From Patescibacteria group bacterium (GTDB lineage: Bacteria > Patescibacteriota > Minisyncoccia > Minisyncoccales > JAHCRE01), in contig JAHCRE010000016.1 of assembly GCA_020148145.1 (NCBI GenBank), positions 4,456 through 68,455 of the forward strand: 64,000 nt of DNA, written 5' to 3'. A model generated the notes under the pieces. The model saw only the letters and a list, made by a program, of their open reading frames with translations. It did no database searches and was not told the DNA's origin. How positions within the stretch are numbered: the first letter of the stretch is position 1; each line of letters starts with the position of its first letter. The position numbers and the translations under genes were made by a program. This document shows positions 26,746 through 51,479 of the stretch, in pieces.

Positions 26746-26841
26746 ATATTTTTATTAAAACACTTTTACTTAAAATTCCATCAATAAACTAAAAAAACTG
26801 TCTTAATTATGGCGGTTTTTTTGGTCTGGGTTAAACCAAAA

Positions 26842-26947
26842 CCCCCGAGACTACAACCCACCCAAGGACGGGGCGTTTCGCTTCGCAAAAGCGCCTCGCG
26901 TCCCGACCACATCCTCCCGCCTTCGGTGGGCCCCTAAACTCTCGGGG
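26842..26947 (+). repeat. family A long-form GC-rich element; left copy of a 104-bp identical direct-repeat pair
   Basis: ccccgagactacaaccc...cccctaaactctcggg is identical over 104 bp to 37668-37771. The module is nested inside a CCCGAGA..TCTCGGG terminator-type hairpin. Confidence 0.85.
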
Positions 26948-26954
26948 CGGGCGG

Positions 26955-27103
26955 AAATAAAAAGGAAGGTTTAAATTCTTCTTCTCTTTCCAAGAGGTTG
27001 CATTACTCTAATAGTAAATAACAGACAAACCTCGTTCCCCTCCTGCAAGAGTTATTTAAGGCAACAACTCATATTGGGAGAAGAAGAAACCTTCCTATGA
27101 ATA
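26955..27103 (-). ncRNA. candidate rod-like small RNA (about 150 nt), identity unknown
   Basis: Minus-strand promoter TTGTAT-17-TAATAT (plus coords 27133-27138 / 27110-27115). 5' AGGAAGGUUU-CUUCUUCUC pairs with 3' GAGAAGAAG..AAACCUUCCU, followed by UUUUUAUUU. The internal helices continue (CCAA/UUGG, GUUGC/GCAAC, AAAUAAC/GUUAUUU). No ORF. Confidence 0.45.
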
Positions 27104-27307
27104 CTCCATATATTAGCATAAAAAGGTTAAAAATACAAGACAAACCCCGAGAAAAACTCTCGGGCTAACTTACTGCGGGTCGTGGATGACGCTGTGCCCC
27201 GTAGTGAGCTTCGCTCTACTACTGGGGTTAAAACCTATTTAGTGAACATTTCAAGCACTCTTAAATCGGCCCTTATAGTTGTTTGAGCTAAATTTTTAGT
27301 ATAATAC

Positions 27308-28213
27308 TTATTCAGAAAGCGTATTGAATGCTTCTTCGGTACTGGTTGTAGTGTTACCCACAGCATCAGCAGAGCTCACTAGATAATGGTAAGTAGTGCT
27401 TGGAGTTAAACTGAATAGTGCGATGTTATGATCTAATACTAAATCGAGAGAACTCTCCATCGGCGTTGAATCTGGTATAACAAGCGGAGTCACTGTATCA
27501 TACCACACCTTACTATCTGCTGGCTCGTTGGTAAGCCAAGTAATCATCGTTGATGTTGTAGTGGTATCTATGGCACTAAGTTCTGAAATAACGGGCGCTA
27601 TAGTGTCCGGAGTGGGTGTTTCTTCTTCTAGTTTTTTAGCAATACCGGGGGGAAGTTTTTGTCCAGGCAATGGCTTAGGCTCAAATCCAAGTTTTTTTCT
27701 AATTCCTGGCGCAATTAAAAGACCAAGTGGCACTTTACCAGACTCGCCGGCACCTTCCTCAAGTAGCTCGTTTATTCTAGATAATGTTTTGGGCCCGACC
27801 ACTCCGACCTGCTCAATGCCTGCTATTTTCTGAAATCTTTTTACCGCATTCCTTGTTAATGGGCCAAAGTATCCTGTAACCAGTCCTTCAGGATAAATGT
27901 CTGGGTCTGTTGCTAATATTTCTTGTAATAACTTAACGTCTTCCCCGGTCATGCCTGTTCGCAGTTGCCTAATTAGCTTAAGAGTTTCTTTAATCTCTTT
28001 TTCTATCTTCTTTACTTCCAGCCTTGCTTGTCTTAATGTTTCTATCTGAGCAATTAATGCTTCTATCTGCGCCCTTAATTTTTCTATCTGTTCTTGCAAT
28101 AATTGAAGGAGTTCCTGTACTGAAGGAGTGTTTGTTGTTTGCGCAAAAACGGGTATATACAAAACACCAAGCAAAATAGTCACACCAAGAAGAATGCCAA
28201 TAATTTTATTCAT
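27308..28213 (-). CDS. secreted peptidoglycan-binding protein with coiled coil and FN3-like C-terminal domain
   Basis: 301 aa. Signal peptide. PG_binding_1-like motif (GEDVKLLQEIL..GYFGPLTRNAVKRFQ). The C-terminal ITWLTNEPADSKVWYD..TTYHYLV domain is similar to the one in 17704-19854. Confidence 0.75.
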   Translation of the reverse strand: MNKIIGILLGVTILLGVLYIPVFAQTTNTPSVQELLQLLQEQIEKLRAQIEALIAQIETLRQARLEVKKIEKEIKETLKLIRQLRTGMTGEDVKLLQEILATDPDIYPEGLVTGYFGPLTRNAVKRFQKIAGIEQVGVVGPKTLSRINELLEEGAGESGKVPLGLLIAPGIRKKLGFEPKPLPGQKLPPGIAKKLEEETPTPDTIAPVISELSAIDTTTTSTMITWLTNEPADSKVWYDTVTPLVIPDSTPMESSLDLVLDHNIALFSLTPSTTYHYLVSSADAVGNTTTSTEEAFNTLSE

Positions 28214-28357
28214 TTTATTTTAATTTAATAAGATAGACTTTTAATACTATCCGACCTTTCATCTTTATTTATTATACCTTACCTATTTGCAAATCAAAAG
28301 CCCGAGAAAAACACTTCAATAAATTCAGTGTAAACTTCTCGGGCGGGGCGGGCGGAA

Positions 28358-28735
28358 ATAAAAAAAGAAGGGGATCGAAATTATTAATAGTGATCCCCTA
28401 TGAATGGTTGGGCGGAGTTTTCTCCGTAAGGAGAAATCTCTGCAATTTCATTTCCAACGTAAGCTGTTGGATAGCTTTTAGCCTTTCGGCTATAAGCTAC
28501 CTTTTTGTGAGCATCTTCCGAAGAAAATGCTCTTTTGCTCTCGCTAGAAACGAGATTGAAGGGAGCCCCTTCCATATACCTGGCTTGATAGCCTGCCTTG
28601 GTAAAGCCTAAGCCCTACAAAGTACTCACTATTTTTTCCTTTCGGAAAAAGAATTTCTTCCTTCTTTTTGGGAACAAACAGGAGGTCACAGACATACTGC
28701 ACAGGATTGCAACAGTGATCCCTCTTCACTCTGCG
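28358..28735 (-). ncRNA. candidate structured ncRNA (about 380 nt) adjacent to the arrays; possible tracrRNA-like component
   Basis: - Minus-strand promoter TTGACA-16-TAATAT (plus coords 28764-28769 / 28742-28747).
- Terminator GGGGATC-N15-GATCCCC + TTCTTTTTTT (28370-28398).
- Several GNRA/UNCG-capped stems (CCGAAAGG, CUUCGGAAG, GCCGAAAGGC, CCUUACGGAG).
- Only short overlapping ORFs on both strands.
- The 3' part, AGAUUUC-UCCUUAC-GGAGAA, is complementary to the repeat segment UUCUCCGAAAUCU. Confidence 0.5.
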
Positions 28736-28870
28736 AGTTTCATATTAGCAAACCCAAGTATGTTGTCAAGTCCGTATAAAGTGAAAAAACTGTGGAAAAC
28801 TTTTACCCCGAGAAAAGCCGCAGAACCAGAATAAATTCGGTTCATAGTTTCGCTCTCGGGCGGGCGTAAA

Positions 28871-28891
28871 TAAAAAAGCCCTAAATAGGGC
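28871..28891 (-). terminator. intrinsic terminator closing array A1
   Basis: Minus strand reads GGCCCTATTTAGGGC + TTTTTT. The same hairpin recurs at the end of A2, A3, A4, A5 and A6. Confidence 0.65.
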
Positions 28892-28913
28892 CTAAATTTA
28901 TGGAACAGTTCGT

Positions 28914-29345
28914 AGTTACAGATTAAATCACTCGGAACAATACATGAAATAGGTTACAAGATTTCGGGAAAAACTCGGCATCTCGTTACGTATTTGATGG
29001 AAAAGCCTCACTTTATTACAAGATTTCGGGAAACCCAGGAATCGTCGTGGATTACAAAATTTCGGAAAGCAATAACTATGGAGATTACAAAGATTTCGAA
29101 GAATCACCAGCCTCACGGATTACAAGGTTTTGGAAAATTGCGATGAAGTATATATCAAGGCATTACAAGATTTCGGGGAATCGTTTCCTATGTGTGCATA
29201 ATTACAAGATTTCGGGAAATCGGATAATAGATGAGCGTCCATTACAAAGTCGCCGTAAGCACTGTTACGAGGTATACTGGGTAACGCAATTACAAGATTT
29301 CTGAGATTTTGCGCGGTAGTTTCGAATTACAAGATTTCGGAGAAT
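28914..29345 (-). CRISPR. CRISPR-like mini-array A1 (about 11 units)
   Basis: Units start (plus coords) at 28952, 29014, 29050, 29083, 29118, 29161, 29200, 29240 (degenerate), 29288 and 29325. Consensus ATTACAAGATTTCGGRRAAT. Variant repeat GTTACAGATTAAATCAC at 28914. Unit periods mostly 33-48 bp (62 bp at the degenerate distal end). Confidence 0.6.
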
Positions 29346-29394
29346 TTTAGGCATCAGCATTTTGGAGGATCGCTTCAAGCTTCGGTGACCGTGA

Positions 29395-29508
29395 GTTATT
29401 TGCTTTTCAACGAACTACTTATCTCCTCCATATTCCCTGGGGAATACTTTATGAGATATTATGGGCATGTAACATACCCGGGTATGGAAAAGCCTTGCTT
29501 TTCCATCC
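29395..29508 (-). ncRNA. conserved structured leader RNA L1 (tracr/scout-like candidate)
   Basis: Three hairpins on the minus strand: AUGGAAAAGC-AAG-GCUUUUCCAU (29484-29506), GGGUAUG-UUA-CAUGCCC (29463-29479) and UAUUCC-CCAG-GGAAUA (29431-29446). Then an invariant GGAGGAGAUAAGUAGUUCGUUGA. Paralogs L2-L6. Confidence 0.6.
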
Positions 29509-29514
29509 TTTTTA

Positions 29515-29543
29515 AGGGTAGCAAAAGAGAGATTCTTTGTCAA
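29515..29543 (-). promoter_or_regulatory. promoter of cassette A1
   Basis: Minus strand TTGACA (29538-29543), 17 bp, TACCCT (29515-29520). Confidence 0.55.
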
Positions 29544-29560
29544 TGTGGGTGGGCAAAATA

Positions 29561-29580
29561 AAAAAGCCCTAAATAGGGCC
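29561..29580 (-). terminator. intrinsic terminator closing array A2
   Basis: Minus strand GGCCCTATTTAGGGC + TTTTTTATTTT. Confidence 0.65.
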
Positions 29581-29613
29581 TGAGTTTAAAGAATAAGGAA
29601 GCTACATGAAAGT

Positions 29614-30315
29614 GTTACAGATTGAATCGCTTTCAACCCGGCATAATTTTTATCGAATTACGAGATTTCGGAGAATTTCAGGGGTAAACAGATTTGCTTG
29701 ATTACAAGATTTTAGAAAATCTGAGACGATTTATTGTTACTGCACGATGATACTCTTATACTCTGCCATTACAAGATTTTGGAGCTTAGGGAAATGTTCA
29801 TTACAAGATTTCGGAGAATCGTTTCCTATGTGTGCATAATTACAAGATTTTGGGAAATCGGACATGTGGTCTTCTTATTACAAGATTTCGTCGCATTTCC
29901 AGTTACAGATTAAATCGCTTTTTGTGGCAATGATAACTGGCGATGGGGTTACAGGGTTACAAGATTTCGGACACTTTGCTAATGGCGTTACAAAGTCGGA
30001 ATCAGCATGTAGTTACAAGATTGACATTAGGTAGATATTACAAGATCTCAGAAGAAATCCATTATCAAATTACAAAGATTTCGGAGAATAGCACATACTG
30101 AAGGTCCTTTAATTACAAGACTTCGGGAGACGACAGTTAGTCCTGGAATCGTTACCTTTTTAATCTTTTGGCGATTGCGAAAACGATGGACAGGTATTAC
30201 AAGATTTCAGCACAGTGAAAACAACAGTGAGAACAGTTACGCGCTGGATTATTCTCACAGATTACGAGGCTTCGGGAAATCATTAGGGTTCTCTAATTAC
30301 GAGATTTCGGATAAA
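29614..30315 (-). CRISPR. CRISPR-like mini-array A2 (about 17 units)
   Basis: Main repeat at 29657, 29701, 29768, 29800, 29839, 29877, 29956, 30037, 30069, 30112, 30196, 30261 and 30296. Degenerate copies at 29986 and 30012. Variant repeat GTTACAGATTRAATCGCTT at 29614 and 29902. Confidence 0.6.
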
Positions 30316-30379
30316 GCCTTTGAATATGGTTACTTCGCACCTTAAACCGGCGTTACCCTGTCATCAGCGTGACAACTTA

Positions 30380-30502
30380 TTACTGACTTCTTTGTTTGTC
30401 AACGAACTACTTATCTCCTCCATATTCTTTTGGGAATACTTTGGAAGACATTATGGGCATGTAACATACCCTTGGATAGAAAAGCCTTGCCTTTCTATCC
30501 GC
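30380..30502 (-). ncRNA. conserved structured leader RNA L2
   Basis: Paralog of L1 with the same three hairpins (GGAUAGAAAGGCAAGGCUUUUCUAUCC; GGGUAUGUUACAUGCCC; UAUUC-CCAAAA-GAAUA) and GGAGGAGAUAAGUAGUUCGUUGACAAAC. Confidence 0.6.
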
Positions 30503-30508
30503 TGACTA

Positions 30509-30537
30509 AGATTAGCAGAGGTATGCTTAGTTGTCAA
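30509..30537 (-). promoter_or_regulatory. promoter of cassette A2
   Basis: Minus strand TTGACA (30532-30537), 17 bp, TAATCT (30509-30514). Confidence 0.6.
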
Positions 30538-30564
30538 ATAAAAAGGGCGCTGCTTTGCAGCGCC
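30538..30564 (-). terminator. intrinsic terminator after the helicase gene
   Basis: Minus strand GGCGCTGC-AAA-GCAGCGCC + CTTTTTATTT, located 10 nt after the stop. Confidence 0.75.
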
Positions 30565-30573
30565 ACAAGAAAT

Positions 30574-32406
30574 TTAGGATTCTTTGGTTAAGAGTCGCAG
30601 TCCCTCCTCAAGGCATTCATCGAAAGGTGCTTCGAAACGTGCCCCTTCTAGCCACTCTGGTAAACCTCCTAAGACTCTGTTGAATTGCTTGGAAATAAAG
30701 AAGCACATTCCGATATCCTCTGCTGTTCGGATATTCCGACCTCTTACTTGTAGAGCCTTTACTGTAACTCGATATTTTATTAATCTCCAGCGCAATACTC
30801 CCCATCGTCTTTCCTCAAACTGTGATGCAGGATCCATTGGTCGTGGATATGGAGGTCTCAAGACCCAAATTACCGGAGCAATCTCTCTTGGTAAGTCGAT
30901 TCCTTCGCCGAATTGGGCTACTGTTCCAAGTAAGACATCGCCCTCACCTTCAATAAATCTCCTGGCAGCATCTTTCGCCTTTAATCCTGGTCCATAGGTC
31001 ATTATTTTGAAATCTTTGGAATGTCTTTCCAAAAATTTTAATCGCTCAGCTTCTGAGACAACGGTGATCAAAGATCGGAATTCCTTTTTCAGAAACTCAC
31101 GGCAACCTTTAGCAATTATGCTAAATGCTCGATTTTTTGCCCTAGCCAGTGCTCCTCTGCCTGGGTTAGCTTTCACTGCTAAATTCGGCGTATCGGTCGG
31201 TAGAAAGACTCTCGTATTTTCAATTGGGAAGGTTGATGTATAAACCTGGAAAGGAAAATCTATTCCTGTCTCAATGGCAAAGGTTTCTTTATCGCCTATC
31301 GTTGCCGAGTAAGCAATAATCCTTTCAATAGGCTCTAAAATTTTCAACCGAATCACCGGACTAACATAGAAGTGTCGAATACATAACTTACAGATTACTC
31401 TTGGCCCTCTCTTGCCCCTTTTCCTTCTCTTTTTCCTGTAGAACATAAAGACGTAATTCGATGGCTTCCGTGTTTCTGTACCTGTGGCATAGAATAATTC
31501 TTTGATATACCAGGGAATATGCCGAACAACTATTTCAAGGGTCTTCAAAGTTTTTCTATCTTTTTTTGGGTCTAAAATACCAAGTTCTAAGGCTTTATTG
31601 ATTGTCCCTCTAAGCTCTTTGGTATTTATTTCCTCGAGCAAAGAAATCAATCTTTTGATTTCATGGTCTGCTAAAAGCTCGGGTGGTTCCGTTGGTTTTA
31701 ATTTGGCAATCTTCATCATCTCTTCTAAGAATCTTTCCAGCAACCATTCTCTTCTAATCACTGATAATGCCTTTATCGCTCTTTTTAAGGTAAGGCCACT
31801 GATATCCCAAGAAAGAATCTGCCTTGTTACTTCGGCTAACCTATGAACTTCATCGATCACCAGTACCTTCGGTGGCGAAGCCTTGAATTTTTTCACGTAT
31901 AGCATGTGAGTGACAAGGTAAGCAATTGTGCAGACAATTATGTCTCCTTTCATTGCCCGGTGCTTTACCAAGAGATAAGGACAAGGCTCAACTCCTGGTT
32001 CTACTGTCTTGCCAGTGTCGAGATCTACCCTATGGGGACATTTTAACAATGAGCAAGGTGATTCTTCGGCTGTCACCTTTTCTCTTTTATCTTTGTAGAA
32101 AAGACAAGGATACTCATTCCTTCCATAGGCCTCTACCACTCCCTCTGGATACATTTTTTTGGCTTGTCTAACTAAAGTTTTGGTGGTGGTAGCGTAAATA
32201 ATTGGTTTTACCCCTATTTCCTTAAAGGCTTTTAAAGGAGTAACGCCAGTTGCTGTCTTTCCTCTTCCAGTTGGCATCTCGTGAAGACTTTTTTTGTGGT
32301 AGGCGATGAACTCTAGAGCGGCTCTCTGATCAGGCCTCATTTTCTTATGAGGGAAGCGTTTCTTAAACTCTTCAGACAGATGTTGCGGATGTTCCAGATG
32401 TTTCAT
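30574..32406 (-). CDS. XPD/DinG/Rad3-family SF2 helicase with Fe-S cluster domain, array-associated
   Basis: 610 aa.
- Q-like RPDQ.
- Motif I EMPTGRGKTA.
- Four Cys between motifs Ia and II (C101, C118, C123, C142; YGRNEYPC..SPCSLLKCPH..EPCPY).
- Motif II VLVIDEVH.
- Motif III YSATI.
- Motif V GTVAQFGEGIDLP.
- Motif VI QVRGRNIRTAEDIG.
Own SD AAAGAGGTGAA. Confidence 0.85.
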   Translation of the reverse strand: MKHLEHPQHLSEEFKKRFPHKKMRPDQRAALEFIAYHKKSLHEMPTGRGKTATGVTPLKAFKEIGVKPIIYATTTKTLVRQAKKMYPEGVVEAYGRNEYPCLFYKDKREKVTAEESPCSLLKCPHRVDLDTGKTVEPGVEPCPYLLVKHRAMKGDIIVCTIAYLVTHMLYVKKFKASPPKVLVIDEVHRLAEVTRQILSWDISGLTLKRAIKALSVIRREWLLERFLEEMMKIAKLKPTEPPELLADHEIKRLISLLEEINTKELRGTINKALELGILDPKKDRKTLKTLEIVVRHIPWYIKELFYATGTETRKPSNYVFMFYRKKRRKRGKRGPRVICKLCIRHFYVSPVIRLKILEPIERIIAYSATIGDKETFAIETGIDFPFQVYTSTFPIENTRVFLPTDTPNLAVKANPGRGALARAKNRAFSIIAKGCREFLKKEFRSLITVVSEAERLKFLERHSKDFKIMTYGPGLKAKDAARRFIEGEGDVLLGTVAQFGEGIDLPREIAPVIWVLRPPYPRPMDPASQFEERRWGVLRWRLIKYRVTVKALQVRGRNIRTAEDIGMCFFISKQFNRVLGGLPEWLEGARFEAPFDECLEEGLRLLTKES

Positions 32407-32458
32407 TCAATATTCACCTCTTTTTAAGGTTCTATAGATGGCAAAAGCCACCGTCAAT

Positions 32459-32487
32459 AAATTAGCACATTTTAAAATTTATGTCAA
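32459..32487 (-). promoter_or_regulatory. promoter of the helicase gene
   Basis: Minus strand TTGACA (32482-32487), 17 bp, TAATTT (32459-32464). Confidence 0.6.
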
Positions 32488-32488
32488 G

Positions 32489-32510
32489 AAAAAAAAGGCG
32501 CAAAAGCGCC
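32489..32510 (-). terminator. intrinsic terminator after the Cas12/TnpB-like gene
   Basis: Minus strand GGCGC-TTTT-GCGCC + TTTTTTTT, overlapping the TAG stop. Confidence 0.75.
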
Positions 32511-34447
32511 TAGTTGGTTTTGGGTTCCTCCATTGAAACTAAAGCTATGGCTAGATTCGTGTTGGTATCCCTTCCACACTCACATGTAAGGCTTTTTCGA
32601 TCTTCGACTATCACTAAATTCTGCCAGGTTCCTCCAATTTCCTTTTCGCAATAAGGACAGACTGCCACTTGATTCGCATTAAATTCTCTCTCTTCCACAG
32701 GGAATCCCCGCATTTCCAATTTATATCCTATTCGAGCCCTAAAGATTGAGTCAATCCAGTATCGCAGTTTTCTATTTAGTTCTCGCCTTTCTATCTCTCC
32801 TCTTCTGTAAAGTCTCTTTTGGATGTTCAGTAAAATCACTTTACCCGGCATTGTCATCAAGTACTCAGCTATCCCTTTTGTCTCATTGTGCAAGACCCAC
32901 TTTATCTTCCTTGACTCTTTTAACCTTGGTTTCTTGAAATATCCCCGAGAAGCTTCTTTCCTTTGCTTGAAGTAGTAGTTCTTAATTGAGATTATTTCTT
33001 TGTGTCGGAAAAACCTCACTTTTCTTTGATCTTCTTTAATACTGAGTACACAGGTCGTCTCTAGACAATAGGCAATGATGTGCAACCAGCCCTGGTCTTC
33101 CTTTAAAGGGACTACCTTTGTTAAAGGAAAGATGAAGAAATATTCTTTCTTTTGTCCTTTCCCAATGTGACGGAATAACTCTGGATATCTCGTAGGGTCG
33201 CCAAAGACACGCTCAGCTTTATGATATTCCTCAATCCACCTGGTACCAATGATTAAACCTTCTTTTCTCTTGCCTCTTTCCCAAAGGCCAATGCTGATTT
33301 TCCAAAGACCTAGCTCAACCCTGATGAATTTGTACATTCCTTTTGAGTATTTCACCTTCGTTGTTGGAAAGCTTGGAATCCTATCTGGCCTTATTTTTCT
33401 GAATTCTCTATCTAGCTGACATTCTGGCCCCCAATCGTATTCTCTGTAGTTTTCGCATCCTTCGCAGATTGGCGTTGCTATCCTCTTTACAATCTCCGTA
33501 GTCTTTGCTTTTCCCTCCGAAATCATGACTTTCCTTCCGAGATTCACTCTCGTTCTTTTTAAGCGTTGGAGTTCCTCCTTTATCGTTTTCTTTTGCTTCC
33601 TATCCGTTGCAACTTTAAGAAATCCTTCTGCCTTTTTTATTTCTTGCTCAATGCTTCTGAGTATCTCTTTTTTAGCCTCAATTTTCCTCAATGTCCTCGA
33701 AGATATTTCCTTTGGCTTCTCTTGCAAAAGTTCATTGATTCCTCTTAACCTTTCTCTTCTTTTTTTTCTGTTTTTCTTTGTGATATCCTGGCCTAACCAA
33801 TAGAAGAGGAAGTGTCTAAAGGGCGAAATTAGGGCTCTTGTCTCTCGCCATTCATTTCTAATTTCTTGTATCTCCTGCGGTTCATCAACGGGTTCTTTTC
33901 CTATTCCGCTCTCTTTACATTCTTTGAATTTTCTCTGAAACTCATTTTTCTTTAAGATTTTTCCCCAGTTGTTGCTTAACCAAGCATTCATCATTGACTG
34001 GGCAGCAGTGAAGGCTAAATCGATGAAGGTCTTTAATGGAATCTTAAAGATTCTCTTTGCTTCATAGGCAACTTCTTGCCGGGCTATTTTCCCAAAAATA
34101 TAAGACCTTGCACAGGCAGAGCAATACTTTTGACCATCGAATTTTGATTCCATCACCAAATTCGTTTCTTTTTGGCAATTAGCGCAGACTCCTTTTTCTT
34201 TTGGAATGATGTAAAATCTCCTAAGTCTTTGAGAAAATCTTCGCATGCAAAACTCACCAGCCCTGCTAAACTCATCGATCAATCTCTCAAAGTCTTGCTC
34301 TGGAATTCCGGCTATTCTCAAAGGGATTCCAAGAGTCACTATATTGAATCTTGTCTGGCATTCCTCGCAAGCCATCGGATTTTTCTTTCCTGAAATCTTA
34401 ATTTCAACCTGGCATTCCGGATTCGGACATTTTACTTTTTTTACCAA
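32510..34447 (-). CDS. TnpB/Cas12-like (type V-like) RNA-guided effector candidate with apparently degenerate RuvC
   Basis: 645 aa. TTG start 7 nt after GGAGG.
- The C-terminal third matches the TnpB/Cas12 core: YWIDSIFRARIGYKLEMRGFPVEE (YK.E..G.V block), Zn finger CPYC..x19..CEC, and RuvC-III-like GRDTNTNLAIAL.
- The RuvC-I position reads IIAYCLETT (no GxDxG).
- The RuvC-II position reads VILLNIQ (no Glu).
- Three further Zn-ribbon-like Cys pairs lie in the N-terminal and central parts: CPNPEC..CEEC, CANC..CSAC and CEGC..C. Confidence 0.7.
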   Translation of the reverse strand: MVKKVKCPNPECQVEIKISGKKNPMACEECQTRFNIVTLGIPLRIAGIPEQDFERLIDEFSRAGEFCMRRFSQRLRRFYIIPKEKGVCANCQKETNLVMESKFDGQKYCSACARSYIFGKIARQEVAYEAKRIFKIPLKTFIDLAFTAAQSMMNAWLSNNWGKILKKNEFQRKFKECKESGIGKEPVDEPQEIQEIRNEWRETRALISPFRHFLFYWLGQDITKKNRKKRRERLRGINELLQEKPKEISSRTLRKIEAKKEILRSIEQEIKKAEGFLKVATDRKQKKTIKEELQRLKRTRVNLGRKVMISEGKAKTTEIVKRIATPICEGCENYREYDWGPECQLDREFRKIRPDRIPSFPTTKVKYSKGMYKFIRVELGLWKISIGLWERGKRKEGLIIGTRWIEEYHKAERVFGDPTRYPELFRHIGKGQKKEYFFIFPLTKVVPLKEDQGWLHIIAYCLETTCVLSIKEDQRKVRFFRHKEIISIKNYYFKQRKEASRGYFKKPRLKESRKIKWVLHNETKGIAEYLMTMPGKVILLNIQKRLYRRGEIERRELNRKLRYWIDSIFRARIGYKLEMRGFPVEEREFNANQVAVCPYCEKEIGGTWQNLVIVEDRKSLTCECGRDTNTNLAIALVSMEEPKTN

Positions 34448-34603
34448 ACTCTCACCTCCCGACCATTACGCCGCGTTTCATACCCATCCATTTCTTTGAT
34501 GGGCTTCTCCCCTTTACAATCCTTTTAGACTGCTTTAGAGAGATTTAGGCGGTGAAACACCACCCTTTGCACCCATCATCTAATTGTCAAGATGCTAACT
34601 TCA

Positions 34604-34729: not shown

Positions 34730-35060
34730 ATTACAAATTCAAATGGACGGATTATTACTGTCATCCAAGCATTGTTACAGATTAAGTCGCTTCCAACTTG
34801 GCATAATTTTTATCGAATTACAAAATTTCGGAGGATCAGATTTCCAGCTATTACAAGATTTCGGAAGACCTCACCGACGATTGGAATTACAGGACTTCAG
34901 AGATGTGTATAATTACAAAATTTCGGAAAGTCACTAGGGTCAAATTGGTTACCTTTTTAAGCTTTTCGAAGACGATGGACAAGTATTACAAATGTCTGAA
35001 ATCTGCGGAAATTACAAGATTGCAGAGAATGGCTTCGACGGTTACAAGATTTCGGGAAAT
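34730..35060 (-). CRISPR. CRISPR-like mini-array A3 (about 9 units)
   Basis: Main repeat at 34817, 34850, 34886, 34912, 34985, 35011 and 35041. Degenerate copy at 34730. Variant repeat at 34774. The distal ~140 bp are nearly identical to the distal end of A6. Confidence 0.6.
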
Positions 35061-35136
35061 CGATGTATCATTGCACTTGTTACCTCTTTAGTCTTTTAGA
35101 TGAACGAGGCAGGTCGAGGAGTTAATCTTTTCCACC

Positions 35137-35260
35137 GAACAACACTGTCTTTTTGTTTTCAAAGAACTATTTACCTCCTCCATGGTCCCTGGGACCACTT
35201 TGAGAAATATTATGGGCATGTAACATACCCAGGTATAGAAAAGCCTTGCCTTTCTATCCA
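35137..35260 (-). ncRNA. conserved structured leader RNA L3
   Basis: Paralog of L1. Hairpin 3 is GGUCC-CAG-GGACC here versus UAUUCC..GGAAUA in L1, a compensatory change. Hairpin 1 is UAGAAAGGC-AAG-GCUUUUCUA. Confidence 0.6.
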
Positions 35261-35266
35261 TTTTTA

Positions 35267-35295
35267 AAAATAGCAAAAGAGAGATTCTTTGTCAA
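35267..35295 (-). promoter_or_regulatory. promoter of cassette A3
   Basis: Minus strand TTGACA (35290-35295), 17 bp, TATTTT (35267-35272). Confidence 0.55.
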
Positions 35296-35318
35296 ACAAA
35301 AAAGCCCTGAATAGGGCC
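35296..35318 (-). terminator. intrinsic terminator closing array A4
   Basis: Minus strand GGCCCTATTCAGGGC + TTTTTTGTTT. Confidence 0.65.
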
Positions 35319-35350
35319 TAAGTTTAAAGAACAATTCAAAATAATCCCAA

Positions 35351-35915
35351 GTTACAAAGATGTGATTCAATATTCAATCTGTTCTTTATTACTTCACGAA
35401 CGGAGGAAAGTATGAGTTACAGTAATATTCTTTTTTTGCACCAACAGCCTTTTGTTACAGATTAAATCGCTTCCAACCTGGCATGATTCTTATCGAATTA
35501 CAAGATTTCGGAGAATCATCGGTGTGCTTCTATTACAAGGTCTCGGCAAATCTTGGGCAATGGTAGTTGCATTACAAGATTTCTGAAAATCTATCTGCTT
35601 CATTACGATAGAGTTTCGCTAACAAAGTCTCGTTGTAATGTCCGGCGTTACATACTTGAAAGTGTGAAGTTACAGATTAAATCGCTTCCTCGGAGGCTTC
35701 AGATTACAAGATTTCGGAGAATGACACATATTGAGGATCCTTTAATTACAAGATTTCGGGAAATCGGACATGTGGTCTTCTTATTACAAAATTTCGGATT
35801 TGTTCGCCCTCGCCTCAATTACAAGATTTCGGAGAATCGTTCCAGTCTGGTCGGGCGGCATTACAAGATTTTGGGAGATTATCAGAGTATATCGTAATAT
35901 TACAATAGTCATTTA
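35351..35915 (-). CRISPR. CRISPR-like mini-array A4 (about 13 units)
   Basis: Main repeat at 35497, 35532, 35571, 35703, 35745, 35783, 35818 and 35860. Degenerate copies at 35351, 35602 and 35899. Variant repeat at 35454 and 35669. Spacers between clean repeats are 15, 19, 11, 22, 18, about 15-19 and 22 nt. Confidence 0.65.
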
Positions 35916-35997
35916 GGAACATCGACGTTACTCTACATCTTAAACCAGCGTTACTCTTGAATAAACGGGATAGGTCGAAGAGTTAATCTTTTTCATT

Positions 35998-36122
35998 GAA
36001 CAACACTGTATCCTCTGTTTTTCAAAGAACTATTTACCTCCTCCATGGTCCCTGGGACCACTTTGAGAGATATTATGGGCATGTAACCTACCCAGGCATA
36101 GAAAAGCTTTACCTTTCTATCC
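35998..36122 (-). ncRNA. conserved structured leader RNA L4
   Basis: Paralog of L3 with the same three hairpins and GGAGGAGGUAAAUAGUUCUUUGAAAAAC. Confidence 0.6.
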
Positions 36123-36128
36123 ATTTTA

Positions 36129-36157
36129 AAGGTAGCAAAAGAGAGGCTTTTTGTCAA
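36129..36157 (-). promoter_or_regulatory. promoter of cassette A4
   Basis: Minus strand TTGACA (36152-36157), 17 bp, TACCTT (36129-36134). Confidence 0.55.
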
Positions 36158-36169
36158 TGTGGGCGACCA

Positions 36170-36193
36170 AAACAAAAAAGCCCTGAATAGGGC
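36170..36193 (-). terminator. intrinsic terminator closing array A5
   Basis: Minus strand GGCCCTATTCAGGGC + TTTTTTGTTTT. Confidence 0.65.
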
Positions 36194-36226
36194 CTGAGGT
36201 TAAAGAACAATTTGGTAAATGTATCC

Positions 36227-36642
36227 GTTACAAGGGAAAAGCTCGTTTTAAATTACTGCACTACCGATGAGTAAGTGGTTGGGCGAAAGGTTACAGGTTA
36301 CGGCAACACCTCGAAGCACTGTTACAGATTAAATCGCTTTTTTCTTTTGTTTCCTATTATATCTTGACGCCAATTACAAGATTTCGGAAATACCGCGGGC
36401 TCTTATTACAAGATTTCGGATTTGTTCGCCCTCGCCTCAATTACAAGATTTCGGTGAATCGGATATCCCTTATTACAAGATTTCGGAAAATAGCACTAAT
36501 AAGCGAAGCTGGGTTACAAAATTTCGGAAAATGATTGTCAGAGTATTACAAGCTTCATAGGTTGGGACCCGGGGACCGTATTACAAGATTTCGAAAGATC
36601 GCAATGAAATATATCTCGAGGCATTACAAAATTTCAGGAAAT
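36227..36642 (-). CRISPR. CRISPR-like mini-array A5 (about 10 units)
   Basis: Main repeat at 36373, 36405, 36440, 36472, 36513, 36545, 36580 and 36623. Degenerate copy at 36227. Variant repeat at 36321. Confidence 0.6.
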
Positions 36643-36710
36643 AGTATATGACCAATGTTACTTTTCTAAGCTTTGGGGCCAAAGAGATGAAACGTTACCT
36701 CTTTTCCATC

Positions 36711-36835
36711 GAACAACACTGTATCCTCTGTTTGTCAAAGAACTATTTACCTCCTCCATGGTCTCTGGGACCACTTTGTGAGATATTATGGGCATGTAAC
36801 ATACCCAGAGATAGAAAAGCCTTGCCCTTCTATCC
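36711..36835 (-). ncRNA. conserved structured leader RNA L5
   Basis: Paralog of L3/L4. The tail reads GGAGGAGGUAAAUAGUUCUUUGACAAAC. Confidence 0.6.
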
Positions 36836-36841
36836 CTTTTA

Positions 36842-36870
36842 AAGGTAGCAAAAGAGAGATTCTTTGTCAA
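36842..36870 (-). promoter_or_regulatory. promoter of cassette A5
   Basis: Minus strand TTGACA (36865-36870), 17 bp, TACCTT (36842-36847). Confidence 0.55.
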
Positions 36871-36880
36871 TGTGGACGGG

Positions 36881-36908
36881 CGAAAATAAAAAAGCCCTAA
36901 ATAGGGCT
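36881..36908 (-). terminator. intrinsic terminator closing array A6
   Basis: Minus strand AAGCCCTATTTAGGGCT + TTTTTATTTTC. Confidence 0.65.
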
Positions 36909-36941
36909 TAAGGCTTAAAAATATTATGACATGGGAATCTA

Positions 36942-37500
36942 ATTACAAATTCAAATGGACGGATTATTACTGTCATCCAAGCATTGTTACAGATTAAATC
37001 GCTTTCAACCTGGCATAATTTTTATCGAATTACAAAATTTCGGATTTGTTCGCCCTCGCCTCAATTACAAGATTTCGGGAGATTAAAGATAAAAGTCGTT
37101 GTCTACGAGTTCGATGAAATTACATGAAACATTTTCAGACTCATGGTGTTACTAGGCTACTTGAATCAGCTTGAATTACAAGATTTCGGAGGATCAACCA
37201 ATTGGCGGCATATTACAAGATTTCGGAAGATCGCTCGATCAAATTACCCCAACGAGTCTTCAAATTACAAGATTTCGTCGTATTTCCAGTTACAGATTAA
37301 ATTGCTTCCTCGGAGACTTCAGATTACAAGATTTCGGATAATGGAAGGTGGTTACTTTTGACAACAGCAAATAAACGAGTTCGCATTACAAAATTTTGGA
37401 GAATCCACGTGTCACAAACCATGTTATCGATCAGTTACAGGGGTGAGGAATTACAAGATCTCGGAATTCTCATTGAATGGGAATTACATGATGTTTTGAC
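36942..37500 (-). CRISPR. CRISPR-like mini-array A6 (about 13 units)
   Basis: Main repeat at 37029, 37064, 37175, 37212, 37264, 37323, 37385 and 37450. Degenerate copies at 36942, 37119 and 37483. Variant repeat at 36986 and 37289. Confidence 0.6.
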
Positions 37501-37504
37501 TTAT

Positions 37505-37626
37505 ATTACTGACTTCTTCGCTTGTCAAAGAACTATTTACCTCCTCCATATTCTTGAGGAATACTTCGGTAGATATTATGGGCATGTAACATACCCGTGG
37601 ATAGAAAGGTATACCTTTCTATCCGC
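37505..37626 (-). ncRNA. conserved structured leader RNA L6
   Basis: Paralog of L2. Hairpin 1 is a perfect 11-bp stem GGAUAGAAAGG-UAUA-CCUUUCUAUCC. Hairpin 3 is UAUUC-CUCAA-GAAUA. Confidence 0.6.
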
Positions 37627-37661: not shown

Positions 37662-37666
37662 GCAAA

Positions 37667-37771
37667 GCCCCGAGACTACAACCCACCCAAGGACGGGGCG
37701 TTTCGCTTCGCAAAAGCGCCTCGCGTCCCGACCACATCCTCCCGCCTTCGGTGGGCCCCTAAACTCTCGGG
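37667..37771 (+). repeat. family A long-form GC-rich element; right copy of the 104-bp identical direct-repeat pair
   Basis: Identical over 104 bp to 26843-26946, in the same orientation. Confidence 0.85.
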
Positions 37772-37853: not shown

Positions 37854-38474
37854 TCATTTAGTTTCTTGAGTTATTGATTTTGGATTTCCACAGATAATAG
37901 TTGAGATTACTGACAGTCCTGAACGTTCTATTTCTTGTCTGTTCTTAAGTAGACTCTCTGGTTTATGGCAGATGGTATACGCGTTTACTGGTAATCCTAA
38001 GCGTTTTAATTTTCGTTTGTTTTTAAGTAGACTCTCTGGTCTGCAGCAGATAGTAGTTGCATTTACTGATAGTCCTAGGCGTCTCAGTTCCTGTCTTTTT
38101 TTAAGCAGGTTTCCTGGAATCAAGGCTATAGTTGTTGAAGTTACTGGCAACCCTAAGCGTTTTAATTCTCTTAATCTCCCTGGGTTTCTTAGAGCTATTT
38201 TTTTGCTAAATCCTGCTTTTTCGAATTCCCTGATTAAGGAATGCATAAATTTGTTTATCTCTGAGGGATCAAATTTAAATAAGTATTCACCCGCTGCCTC
38301 ATGTTTAGCAATAATGCTAGCGAATTGACTCTCAATACCTCTAATTTCTAGTTTATGCCTTAACCATTTCCAGGGCCCTTTCCTTTTATCTGAACTGAAG
38401 ATTTCTAATAGTGTTTCTTCAATTTTAGGATTAACTTGAACGGCTTTATAGGCTATGCCTGGGTATGGATTCAT
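37854..38474 (-). CDS. helical-repeat protein with four to five 26-aa mTERF-like repeats
   Basis: 206 aa. The C-terminal half is made of tandem units GL[PS]V..TI...P..LLK....L.RL. Examples: GLPVTSTTIALIPGNLLKKRQELRRL, GLSVNATTICCRPESLLKNKRKLKRL, GLPVNAYTICHKPESLLKNRQEIERS. Terminator hairpin at 37810-37835. Confidence 0.55.
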   Translation of the reverse strand: MNPYPGIAYKAVQVNPKIEETLLEIFSSDKRKGPWKWLRHKLEIRGIESQFASIIAKHEAAGEYLFKFDPSEINKFMHSLIREFEKAGFSKKIALRNPGRLRELKRLGLPVTSTTIALIPGNLLKKRQELRRLGLSVNATTICCRPESLLKNKRKLKRLGLPVNAYTICHKPESLLKNRQEIERSGLSVISTIICGNPKSITQETK

Positions 38475-38627
38475 TTTCCTCCTTCTCTCCTTTCCCCATT
38501 TTTAATGAACTTTAATATCTATTTATATATGATTGCTGAAGATTTGTCAAAGAGATAAAAAAACCAAAACCCCCGAGAGAAAAGCTCTCGGGGGGCGGCT
38601 CGGTCTCTCGAACCGAGCACAAGCCTG

Positions 38628-51384: not shown

Positions 51385-51479
51385 TAAAATAGATTAACAT
51401 TTTCTATAAATGCTGTCAAAAAAGCCCGAGAATTATTCTCGGGCTGGATTTTTAAAAGATTTTAAACAGCAGTCAATTC

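What the first reader, a model, noticed from the sequence alone, without database searches (positions are those of the whole stretch)
28358..28735. Stand-alone structured RNA of about 380 nt next to array A1 with a split anti-repeat
The region has a good minus-strand promoter (TTGACA-16-TATAAT-like TAATAT) and a strong terminator (GGGGATC..GATCCCC + U-run). It has many tetraloop-capped stems and only short overlapping ORFs on both strands.

Near its 3' end the RNA reads GCAG-AGAUUUC-UCCUUAC-GGAGAA-AAC. The two halves are the exact complement of UUCUCC and GAAAUCU, which are contiguous in the array repeat (A-UUCUCC-GAAAUCU-UGUAAU). That gives 13 complementary nt in the correct antiparallel order, interrupted by a 7-nt bulge.

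Type V tracrRNAs typically carry the anti-repeat near their 3' end.

Caveat: the same segment is also a self-complementary hairpin, so the match could be partly fortuitous.
Basis: partly seen in the sequence, partly recalled or inferred. Interest (0 to 1): 0.55.

Follow-up and report, generated by a model that had tools for sequence, protein, structure and literature searches.

The report
Orphan antisense-like RNA beside Cas12-DinG arrays
A roughly 370-base structured RNA gene really sits next to the guide arrays of a rare Cas12-like/DinG-helicase system, but it looks like a lineage-specific RNA born from an inverted array fragment, while the conserved tracrRNA-like partner is the short leader in front of every array.

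Summary
The described features are present on the minus strand:
- the best sigma-70 promoter of the region (TTGACA-16-TAATAT with TG);
- a GGGGATC/GATCCCC terminator with a U-run;
- a fold far more stable than shuffles (z = -6.7);
- only short overlapping ORFs;
- the split anti-repeat.

No Rfam family, tRNA or tmRNA matches.

The neighbouring 645-aa protein folds like Cas12f/CasX/Cas12g. Its RuvC catalytic positions appear to be lost, and in every informative locus it is paired with a CasDinG-like helicase.

The tracrRNA reading is weak:
- The RNA is absent from the only complete related locus (L001).
- Co-folding keeps the anti-repeat closed in its own hairpin.
- Only a minority of repeat variants match it above background.

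A conserved ~96-nt leader precedes each of the six arrays. Its 7-nt loop is complementary to the repeat 3' end in five lineages, so it is the better tracr/scout-like candidate.

The RNA gene carries, on the opposite strand, a decayed inverted copy of an array junction (repeat, dead promoter, leader). The transcript is therefore partly antisense to repeat and leader. It is most likely a lineage-specific antisense-type RNA of unknown necessity.

The parts
28742..28769 (-). Promoter of the RNA: TTGACA, 16 nt, TAATAT, with TG before the -10 hexamer
   Evidence: 10 of 12 matches, the best site in 28000-30700. Sequence.
28366..28736 (-). Predicted ~370-nt structured non-coding transcript (the finding)
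   Evidence: Fold z = -6.7. Single copy in the window. No Rfam match at gathering score or at E<=10. No tRNA or tmRNA. Only short ORFs without Pfam hits.
28360..28398 (-). Intrinsic terminator: GGGGATC, 15-nt loop, GATCCCC, then a U-run
   Evidence: Read from the sequence.
28419..28447 (-). Split anti-repeat. AAUUGCAGAGAUUUC pairs with repeat GAAAUCUUGUAAU, a 7-nt bulge UCCUUAC follows, then GGAGAA pairs with UUCUCC. On the plus strand this reads as a decayed repeat copy.
   Evidence: -17.0 kcal/mol, matched by 0.6% of background windows for the AUUCUCC variant but by 28% for AUUUCCC. The segment is sequestered in its own hairpin 28436-28419 (-8.1 kcal/mol) and is not used in co-folds.
28520..28597 (+). 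Inverted, decayed copy of an array junction core (dead promoter, leader hairpin H1, start of H2). The RNA is antisense to it.
   Evidence: Strict local alignment with four junctions scores 17-23 against 11.6 +/- 1.5 for shuffles. Only 0.3-2% of genomic windows do as well. blastn E = 0.006. The leader model hits the plus strand at 28552-28657 with 13.5 bits. The RNA-leader duplex is -55 to -59 kcal/mol, matched by 2.5% of background.
28509..28532 (-). Perfect 10-bp hairpin with a UUCG tetraloop
   Evidence: Sequence and fold.
28469..28501 (-). Long hairpin with a GAAA tetraloop
   Evidence: Sequence and fold.
28953..29338 (-). Array A1: units ending ..CCGAAAUCUUGUAAY, period about 32-45 nt
29412..29508 (-). 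Leader of array A1: conserved ~96-nt structured element (H1, H2 with loop UGUUACA, P3a/H3). This is the better tracr/scout-like candidate. Five further copies lie at 30404-30500, 35164-35259, 36027-36122, 36740-36835 and 37530-37624.
   Evidence: Model R1 scores 93-103 bits on the six copies. Covariation. Loop-to-repeat-end complementarity in five lineages.
29657..30308 (-). Array A2
30574..32406 (-). CasDinG-like helicase, 610 aa
   Evidence: PADLOC typeIV_DinG, E = 8e-44 over the full length. Pfam DEAD_2 and Helicase_C_2. A homologous helicase is adjacent to the effector in L001, L133/L134 and L135/L136.
32510..34447 (-). Compact Cas12-like effector, 645 aa, zinc-ribbon rich; the RuvC catalytic residues are apparently replaced
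   Evidence: AlphaFold2 model, pLDDT 88.7. Foldseek hits: Cas12f 3.6e-11, CasX, Cas12g, Cas12k, TnpB. Profile against PDB: best hit a TnpB/Cas12f C-terminal region, E = 0.015. No acidic residue is invariant in 17 family members. The family has only 23 representatives among 1.84e9.
34498..34572 (-). Leader-like element in the effector 5' UTR (loop UGUUUCA)
   Evidence: Model R1, 25.8 bits, E = 7e-4. The same arrangement occurs in L002 341-413 and L130 641-734.
34817..37462 (-). Four further leader-plus-array units
26839..26946 (-). GC-rich 108-nt element, 99% identical to 37664-37771. The two copies bracket the whole ~10.8-kb island, including the RNA.
   Evidence: family D14. Fold -53.6 kcal/mol.

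Best explanation
The 28736-28366 minus-strand transcript is a real, lineage-specific, structured non-coding RNA belonging to a ~10.8-kb island. The island encodes a compact, probably nuclease-dead Cas12-like protein, a CasDinG-like helicase and six guide arrays.

The RNA gene overlies an inverted and decayed copy of an array junction (last repeat, terminator, promoter, leader). The RNA therefore carries an antisense repeat (28447-28419) and an antisense leader 5' half (28597-28520), embedded among newly evolved tetraloop-capped hairpins.

It is not the conserved guide-scaffold RNA of this effector family. That role fits the ~96-nt leader transcribed in cis in front of every array, whose H2 loop pairs with the 5-nt repeat 3' end.

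If the 370-nt RNA acts on the system, the likeliest mode is trans base-pairing with pre-crRNA leaders and a subset of repeats. That would modulate maturation or loading; it would not be an obligatory cofactor.

- Shown: presence, structure, promoter and terminator, antisense similarity, absence from L001, leader covariation.
- Inferred: transcription, any pairing in vivo, regulatory role.
For: **The RNA gene itself**
- Promoter and terminator.
- Fold z = -6.7.
- UUCG and GAAA loops are canonical only on the minus strand.

**Antisense relation to the arrays**
- Anti-repeat: 19 of 20 nt, matched by 0.6% of background windows.
- Ten of 49 units pair at -15 kcal/mol or better.
- Inverted junction similarity: p < 1/300 against shuffles for 3 of 4 junctions, while the sense strand scores at background.
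- Only 0.3-2% of genomic windows reach the same junction score.
- The leader model hits the plus strand only.
- The RNA-leader duplex falls in the top 2.5% of background windows.
- On the plus strand the two segments lie in the same order as in a real junction.

**Island membership**
- The RNA lies inside the 108-nt, 99% identical direct repeats.

**The leader as the conserved partner**
- Model R1 finds it in the window (six copies), L001 (three), L129, L130 and L133.
- 88.7% of cells are paired, and 29 of 29 pairs show changes on both sides; slid controls give about 50% paired.
- Loop and repeat end pair as GUUAC/GUAAY (window), GUUGC/GCAAC (L001), GUUUC/GAAAC (L129), GUUCC/GGAAU (L130) and GUCAA/UUGAC (L133).
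Against: - No homologue of the RNA was found anywhere, so there is no covariation support for its structure and no conservation support for function.
- Each link to the arrays is only moderately significant (p about 0.003-0.03).
- The gap-permissive full-length colinearity is not significant (z = 1.2-3.8).
- Co-folding predicts that the anti-repeat stays closed and binding is weak (-2 to -8 kcal/mol), using the RNA's 5' end rather than the anti-repeat.
- Only one complete comparator locus exists.
- Expression is not shown.
Confidence: 0.4

Rival explanations
1. It is the genuine tracrRNA of this Cas12-like effector. Its 3'-proximal split anti-repeat pairs with the repeats once the protein opens the hairpin, and the large 5' body is the protein-binding scaffold.
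For: - The effector's closest structural relatives (Cas12f, Cas12e, Cas12g, Cas12k) are tracrRNA-dependent (PMC11127173).
- The window repeats barely self-fold (-0.6 to -1.3 kcal/mol), so they may need a partner strand.
- 19 of 20 nt are complementary to the commonest single variant.
- A distant family member (L135) has a clear bulged anti-repeat (16 bp, 10-nt bulge, 6 bp; -36.1 kcal/mol) in its operon 5' UTR. Split anti-repeats therefore occur in this family.
Against: - The RNA is absent from L001, a complete locus with a 60% identical effector.
- The leader is conserved instead, and its loop changes together with the repeat end.
- Most repeat variants match at background level.
- The anti-repeat is sequestered and is not used in co-folds.
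- In L135 the anti-repeat lies directly after a possible H2/H3-like stretch, read by eye because model R1 scores only 4.8 bits there. It is not in a separate 370-nt RNA.
Confidence: 0.12
2. It is a decaying relic of an inverted array unit with no present function. The hairpins are inherited from the leader and terminator sequences, and the promoter and terminator are left-overs or chance.
For: - Inverted junction similarity of about 68% identity over about 78 nt.
- The plus-strand promoter is dead; the hexamers read TTCCGA and TCTCGC.
- No homologue was found anywhere.
- Absent from L001.
Against: - The near-consensus extended -10 promoter and the terminator lie on the strand opposite to the relic.
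- Perfect 10-14-bp hairpins with UUCG and GAAA loops occur where the array junction has no hairpin.
- The fold z-score of -6.7 is stronger than expected from decay.
Confidence: 0.22
3. It is an unrelated non-coding RNA, either a cargo or a lineage-specific housekeeping RNA, that merely lies beside the arrays. The complementarities are fortuitous.
For: - The individual p-values are modest.
- It sits at the edge of the array block.
- It is followed by an unrelated peptidoglycan-binding gene and by another small promoter/terminator unit at 27110-26960.
Against: - No Rfam family matches.
- No homologue lies near the peptidoglycan-binding gene homologues of relatives.
- Two independent antisense matches to array parts occur in the colinear order.
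- It lies inside the island's direct repeats.
Confidence: 0.18
4. The region encodes one or two small proteins (63 aa at 28384-28575 and 61 aa at 28544-28729, both on the minus strand) rather than an RNA.
For: ORFs of 61 and 63 aa exist on the transcribed strand.
Against: - No Pfam match.
- The ORFs overlap each other and ORFs of similar length on the other strand.
- No convincing ribosome-binding site precedes the 63-aa ATG (sequence).
- The region is dominated by perfect hairpins.
Confidence: 0.03

Closest known systems
tracrRNA of type V systems (V-B, V-E, V-F, V-G, V-K)
   Same: - A separate small transcription unit beside a CRISPR-like array of a Cas12-fold effector.
- It contains a sequence complementary to the repeat near its 3' end.
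- It is plausibly derived from an inverted repeat copy; this is the accepted view of tracrRNA origin (my own knowledge).
   Different: - It is about twice as long as known type V tracrRNAs.
- The anti-repeat matches only some repeat variants and is locked in its own hairpin.
- It is not conserved in the sister locus.
- Another element, the array leader, shows the conservation expected of a tracrRNA.
scoutRNA of type V-C/V-D (Harrington et al. 2020, Mol Cell; cited in PMC11127173; details from my own knowledge)
   Same: The array leader, not the 370-nt RNA, resembles a scoutRNA: a short structured RNA next to the array with only about 5 nt of complementarity to the repeat.
   Different: - The leader is transcribed in cis as the 5' end of each pre-crRNA and is present once per array.
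- The effector is a 645-aa Cas12f-like protein rather than the much larger Cas12c/Cas12d (size from my own knowledge).
- The 370-nt RNA has no counterpart in V-C/V-D loci.
Type IV CRISPR-Cas with CasDinG
   Same: - The system pairs an RNA-guided module that apparently lacks nuclease activity with a DinG-family helicase.
- It has no adaptation genes.
   Different: - The RNA-guided module is a single Cas12-fold protein, not a Csf multi-subunit complex.
- A text search for DinG and helicase in the 2025 CRISPR-Cas classification paper found no such combination.
cis-antisense/trans-acting regulatory RNAs of CRISPR loci, for example the long tracrRNA form that represses the cas9 operon (my own knowledge, not tested)
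   Same: An RNA with array-derived sequence that could regulate the system by base-pairing.
   Different: No target in the effector promoter was found, and its 3' tail matches nothing else in the window.

Membership tests
tracrRNA | Encoded in or next to the CRISPR-cas locus as its own transcription unit | tested here: met
   It lies 185 nt downstream of array A1 on the same strand. Promoter; terminator. It lies inside the island's direct repeats. Transcription itself is only predicted.
tracrRNA | Anti-repeat with extended complementarity to the consensus repeat | tested here: inconclusive
   19 of 20 nt pair with the AUUCUCC variant (7 of 49 units), matched by 0.6% of background windows. Other variants are at background: 28% of windows do as well, and the median over units is -12.3 kcal/mol.
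tracrRNA | The repeat:anti-repeat duplex is the favoured interaction | tested here: not met
   Co-folds of the full RNA, or of its 3' domain, with repeat units leave hairpin 28436-28419 closed. Predicted binding is -2 to -8 kcal/mol, elsewhere on the RNA.
tracrRNA | Conserved next to homologous effectors, with the anti-repeat co-varying with the repeat | tested here: not met
   Absent from L001, which is a complete locus. No hit in L002 or L129-L136. The leader H2 loop co-varies with the repeat end instead.
tracrRNA | Binds the effector and is required for crRNA maturation or interference | not testable with these tools
   This needs RIP-seq or reconstitution.
scoutRNA-like (applied to the array leader) | Short structured RNA adjacent to the array with about 3-5 nt complementary to the repeat, conserved across loci | tested here: met
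   The leader model finds 13 array-leader copies in five lineages (window, L001, L129, L130, L133), plus 5' UTR copies in the window, L002 and L130. The structure co-varies. A 5-nt loop-to-repeat-end complementarity is kept with different bases in five lineages. The 370-nt RNA itself does not meet this feature.
Any Rfam family (RNase P, tmRNA, 6S, SRP, OLE, ROOL, GOLLD and others) | Covariance-model match | tested here: not met
   No hit in 28358-28745 at gathering score or at E<=10. ARAGORN finds no tmRNA.
Type V CRISPR-Cas effector (Cas12) | Cas12/TnpB fold with a C-terminal RuvC and zinc ribbon | tested here: met
   Foldseek probability 1.00 to Cas12f, Cas12e, Cas12g, Cas12k, Cas12m and TnpB, on a model with pLDDT 88.7. 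Profile hit to the Cas12f/TnpB C-terminal region, E = 0.015.
Type V CRISPR-Cas effector (Cas12) | Intact RuvC D-E-D catalytic triad | tested here: not met
   - No acidic residue is invariant among 17 members.
- The motif positions read VAYGP, LLN and CG(R/K)(D/E/Q/S).
- The assignment of positions is by eye from motif order and predicted strands, so this is an inference.
TIGR-Tas | Nop-domain effector and fixed 36-nt dual-spacer units (PMC12045711) | tested here: not met
   No Pfam Nop hit. The fold is Cas12-like. Unit length varies from 22 to 55 nt.

The most novel reading that the evidence does not exclude
The 370-nt RNA is a tracrRNA caught near its birth.

In the sister lineage (L001) every 37-nt repeat carries its own 5' strand (CUUGCAGAGA..), which closes on the repeat 3' end. 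In the window lineage the repeats have shrunk to about 20 nt. The missing strand (AUUGCAGAGAUUUC..) would then be supplied in trans by this RNA, which arose from an inverted array junction.

It would serve a nuclease-dead Cas12 that works with a CasDinG helicase.
Probability: 0.1. Interest if true: 0.8.

Novelty: new variant of a known kind. Interest (0 to 1): 0.55.

Why it matters
As a tracrRNA claim the finding is weak. It nevertheless points to a very rare RNA-guided system: 23 representatives among 1.84 billion clustered proteins.
- A 545-830-aa Cas12-fold protein without recognisable RuvC catalytic residues is always paired with a DinG-type helicase.
- It is served by arrays whose only invariant repeat feature is a 5-nt 3' end.
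- That end pairs with a loop of a leader RNA transcribed in cis.

The pairing links type V and type IV logic. It also offers a natural case for studying how tracr-like RNAs arise from array sequence. The 370-nt RNA, apparently made from an inverted array junction, could be such an intermediate, or it could be a regulator.

Tried and rejected
**Identity of the RNA**
- Rfam found nothing in the RNA at gathering score or at E<=10.
- There is no tRNA or tmRNA.
- The small ORFs have no Pfam hit.

**Similarity to other elements**
- Sense-strand similarity of the RNA to the 37-nt L001 repeat (shared TTGCAGAGA) is not significant, p = 0.39.
- The RNA is not a sense paralogue of the array leader: model R1 gives no hit with default filters and 8.9 bits with filters off.
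- Gap-permissive full-length colinearity with an array junction is not significant, z = 1.2-3.8.
- The second small unit at 27110-26960 has no significant relation to the RNA or to the junctions.

**Targets**
- Guides from the arrays do not target the RNA, and matches elsewhere in the window are at chance level.
- The RNA's 3' tail matches nothing else in the window.

**Homologue searches**
- INPHARED phages and PLSDB plasmids in distant mode: no match.
- GTDB genomes with a two-anchor pattern: 0 hits.
- Neighbourhoods of peptidoglycan-binding gene homologues in relatives: no synteny and no RNA.

**System classification**
- TIGR-Tas was rejected.

**Wasted caps**
- The third protein search, with a 17-sequence profile, returned only the three known proteins.
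- The search for related loci found no relatives in GTDB or IMG/VR.

Full report
**1. What is at 28358-28735**

Read on the minus strand, the region has:
- a TTGACA-16-TAATAT promoter with a TG extension at 28769-28742. This is the best sigma-70 match in 28000-30700;
- a terminator made of GGGGATC (28398-28392), a 15-nt loop and GATCCCC (28376-28370), followed by TTCTTTTTTT.

The predicted transcript runs from about 28736 to 28366.
- It folds to -138.2 kcal/mol, against -97.4 +/- 6.1 for dinucleotide shuffles (z = -6.7).
- It contains long perfect hairpins capped by UUCG (28532-28509) and GAAA (28501-28469 and 28650-28633). These loops are canonical only on this strand.
- It is single copy in the window.
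- Only overlapping ORFs of 25-78 aa occur, on both strands, and none has a Pfam hit.
- No Rfam family matches at gathering score or at E<=10, and ARAGORN finds no tmRNA.

The observation of a stand-alone structured RNA gene therefore holds, although transcription is only predicted.

**2. The anti-repeat**

AGAUUUC-UCCUUAC-GGAGAA is present as described.
- RNAduplex extends the match to 19 of 20 nt of the repeat variant AUUCUCCGAAAUCUUGUAAU, over 28447-28419, at -17.0 kcal/mol. Only 0.6% of 1186 same-size background windows do as well.
- That variant is the commonest single one, but it is found in only 7 of 49 canonical units.
- Ten of 49 units pair at -15 kcal/mol or better, and the median is -12.3 kcal/mol, which is background.
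- For AUUUCCC the duplex is at background, with 28% of windows as good.
- The segment is also a -8.1 kcal/mol hairpin.
- When the whole RNA, or its 3' domain, is co-folded with repeat-containing units, the hairpin stays closed. The weak predicted contacts (-2 to -8 kcal/mol) lie elsewhere on the RNA.

**3. The surroundings**

All on the minus strand, there are six tandem transcription units. Each consists of:
- a TTGACA promoter;
- a conserved ~96-nt leader;
- a series of units ending in ..CCGAAAUCUUGUAAY (98 GTAAY motifs in all; unit length 22-55 nt);
- a terminal GCGAUUUAAUCUGUAAC unit;
- a GGCCCTATTTAGGGC terminator.

Many 'spacers' recur between arrays with small differences. No ORF of at least 80 aa in the island other than the helicase, the effector and a peptidoglycan-binding protein gene stands free of these genes or of an array. 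The arrays therefore seem to grow by duplication rather than by Cas1-Cas2 acquisition (inference).

Between arrays 2 and 3 lie two genes.
- A 610-aa helicase matches type IV CasDinG over its full length (PADLOC, 8e-44).
- A 645-aa zinc-ribbon-rich protein has no Pfam hit.

The effector family is extremely rare.
- It has 3 clusters among 5.8e9 proteins.
- A profile search finds 23 representatives among 1.84e9.
- It is absent from GTDB representatives and from IMG/VR.

The effector's structure and active site:
- An AlphaFold2 model built with 17 family members is confident (pLDDT 88.7).
- The model matches Cas12f (3.6e-11), CasX, Cas12g, Cas12k, Cas12m and TnpB.
- The sequence profile weakly matches the Cas12f/TnpB C-terminal zinc-ribbon region (E = 0.015).
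- No acidic residue is invariant in the family. The positions where the RuvC D, E and D are expected read VAYGP, LLN and CG(R/K)(D/E/Q/S).
- I infer a nuclease-dead Cas12-like protein.

A DinG-type helicase gene is adjacent in every locus long enough to tell: the window, L001, L133/L134 and L135/L136. A text search for DinG and helicase in the 2025 CRISPR-Cas classification paper found no Cas12-DinG combination, and two paper searches found none either.

**4. The conserved RNA partner is the leader**

The leader has three elements:
- hairpin H1;
- H2, a 5-bp stem with a 7-nt loop;
- a P3a/H3 hairpin.

A covariance model built from ten copies finds:
- all six window leaders at 93-103 bits;
- three copies in L001;
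- one in L129 and two in L130;
- weaker copies in the 5' UTR of the effector gene, at window 34498-34572 and L002 341-413;
- the L133 leader at 15.1 bits with filters off.

On the model-fitted alignment, 88.7% of cells are paired and 29 of 29 pairs show changes on both sides. Slid controls give about 50% paired. An alignment fitted to a model leans towards that model's structure.

The H2 loop is complementary to the last five bases of the repeat in five lineages, each time with different bases:

| Lineage | H2 loop | Repeat 3' end |
|---|---|---|
| window | GUUAC | GUAAC/U |
| L001 | GUUGC | GCAAC |
| L129 | GUUUC | GAAAC |
| L130 | GUUCC | GGAAU |
| L133 | GUCAA | UUGAC |

In L135 the operon 5' UTR also carries a long bulged anti-repeat: 16 bp, a 10-nt bulge and 6 bp, at -36.1 kcal/mol. 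The leader therefore behaves like a cis-encoded scoutRNA or tracrRNA.

**5. Is the 370-nt RNA conserved with the effector?**

L001 is a 9.5-kb contig with a 60% identical effector. It holds three leader-array units, the effector and the helicase, and it is flanked by uvrC.
- All of its non-coding space is accounted for by leaders and arrays.
- nhmmer and blastn find no homologue of the RNA there.

No homologue was found elsewhere either:
- L002 and L129-L136;
- around homologues of the adjacent peptidoglycan-binding gene in relatives, where there is no synteny;
- phages and plasmids;
- a GTDB pattern scan.

The test rests on one complete comparator.

**6. Where the RNA's array-related sequences come from**

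The plus strand of the RNA gene, not the RNA sense strand, is similar to the array junction.
- The similar part covers the promoter from about -30, the -10 region, H1 and the start of H2.
- It is about 68% identical over about 78 nt, at window 28520-28597.
- Strict local alignment scores are 17-23, against 11.6 +/- 1.5 for shuffles (p < 1/300 for three of four junctions). The sense strand scores at background.
- Only 0.3-2% of genomic windows score as well.
- blastn gives E = 0.006.
- The leader model hits the plus strand at 13.5 bits.
- RNAduplex of the RNA with the leaders is in the top 2.5% of background.

On the plus strand the elements lie in the order of a real junction:
- the repeat-like segment (28419-28447) comes first;
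- hairpins followed by T-runs come next (terminator-like; one search lists 28453-28471);
- the promoter-like and leader-like segment comes last.

The plus-strand promoter hexamers are degenerate (TTCCGA and TCTCGC).

I conclude, with moderate support, that the gene overlies an inverted and decayed array junction. The 'split anti-repeat' is then the antisense of a decayed repeat. A full-length colinear alignment is not significant.

**7. Interpretation**

The strong promoter and terminator on the minus strand, together with the strand-specific canonical tetraloops, argue for a functional RNA rather than pure debris. Its absence from the sister locus and its sequestered anti-repeat argue against an essential tracrRNA.

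My estimates are:

| Reading | Confidence |
|---|---|
| Lineage-specific antisense-type RNA that may pair in trans with pre-crRNA leaders and some repeats | 0.4 |
| Functionless relic | 0.22 |
| Unrelated ncRNA | 0.18 |
| True tracrRNA | 0.12 |
| Small protein gene | 0.03 |

**8. Novelty**

The RNA is an orphan. At most it is a new variant of the anti-repeat or antisense RNA theme. The context is the more remarkable part:
- a dead Cas12-like protein with a CasDinG partner;
- leader-embedded anti-repeat loops;
- arrays defined by a 5-nt motif.

That context deserves follow-up.

Noticed in passing
window 28953-30308 and 34817-37462 (minus); leaders at 29412-29508, 30404-30500, 35164-35259, 36027-36122, 36740-36835, 37530-37624: There are six tandem promoter-leader-array-terminator units. 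The only invariant repeat feature is a 3' GUAAY. The leader H2 loop (GUUAC) is complementary to it, and the complementarity is kept with different bases in five lineages. This looks like a cis-encoded scout/tracr-like RNA.
   Followed up: yes
window 30574-34447 (minus); L001, L133/L134, L135/L136: A compact Cas12-fold protein without conserved RuvC acidic residues always sits next to a CasDinG-like helicase. The family has about 23 representatives among 1.84e9 proteins. A text search of the 2025 CRISPR-Cas classification paper found no such combination.
   Followed up: partly
window 34498-34572 (minus); L002 341-413; L130 641-734: The effector mRNA 5' UTR carries a leader-like element with a different H2 loop (UGUUUCA in the window). 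It may be a protein-binding mimic for autoregulation.
   Followed up: partly
window 26839-26946 and 37664-37771: Two 99% identical copies of a 108-nt GC-rich, very stable element (-53.6 kcal/mol) are closed by CCCGAGAG/UCUCGGGG. They bracket a ~10.8-kb island holding the arrays, effector, helicase, the RNA and a peptidoglycan-binding gene. There is no Rfam hit and no integrase inside.
   Followed up: partly
window 26960-27110 (minus): A second small promoter (TGCTAATAT) and terminator unit of about 150 nt lies inside the island, closed by a long GGAAGGUUUCUUCUUCUC/GAGAAGAAGAA..CCUUCC stem. It has no Rfam hit and no significant similarity to the RNA or to the arrays.
   Followed up: partly
window 27146-27164, 28301-28343, 28807-28860, 38572-38592, 51425-51443; L128: CCCGAGAG-N-CUCUCGGG hairpins sit between terminators and promoters. 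The short form also occurs in a related genome (L128). Versions with inserts flank the RNA gene on both sides.
   Followed up: partly
L135 4148-4181: In a distant family member, the helicase-effector operon 5' UTR ends in a long bulged anti-repeat (16 bp, 10-nt bulge, 6 bp; -36.1 kcal/mol) to the 29-nt repeat of the downstream array.
   Followed up: partly
window arrays, for example 37063, 36439 and 35817 (UGAGGCGAGGGCGAACAAAUCC); 29838 and 29200; 29876 and 35782: Identical or nearly identical 'spacers' recur in different arrays, and unit lengths vary from 22 to 55 nt. The arrays appear to evolve by duplication, and there is no cas1/cas2 nearby.
   Followed up: partly
window 29014 guide against 33007 (minus): One 16-nt guide matches the effector gene itself with one mismatch. 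About 0.1 such matches are expected by chance over all guides.
   Followed up: no
window 41676-42665 (minus) and L003 641-1552: Two TFIIB-like genes (Pfam TFIIB 1e-44 plus the zinc ribbon) lie in what is otherwise a bacterial (Patescibacteria) contig with dnaX, an OmpR-type regulator and sigma-70-type promoters.
   Followed up: no
window 37891-38124, inside ORF 37854-38474 (minus): Three 78-nt tandem repeats encode a repeated RLGLPV-type motif in a 206-aa protein of unknown function, just outside the island.
   Followed up: no
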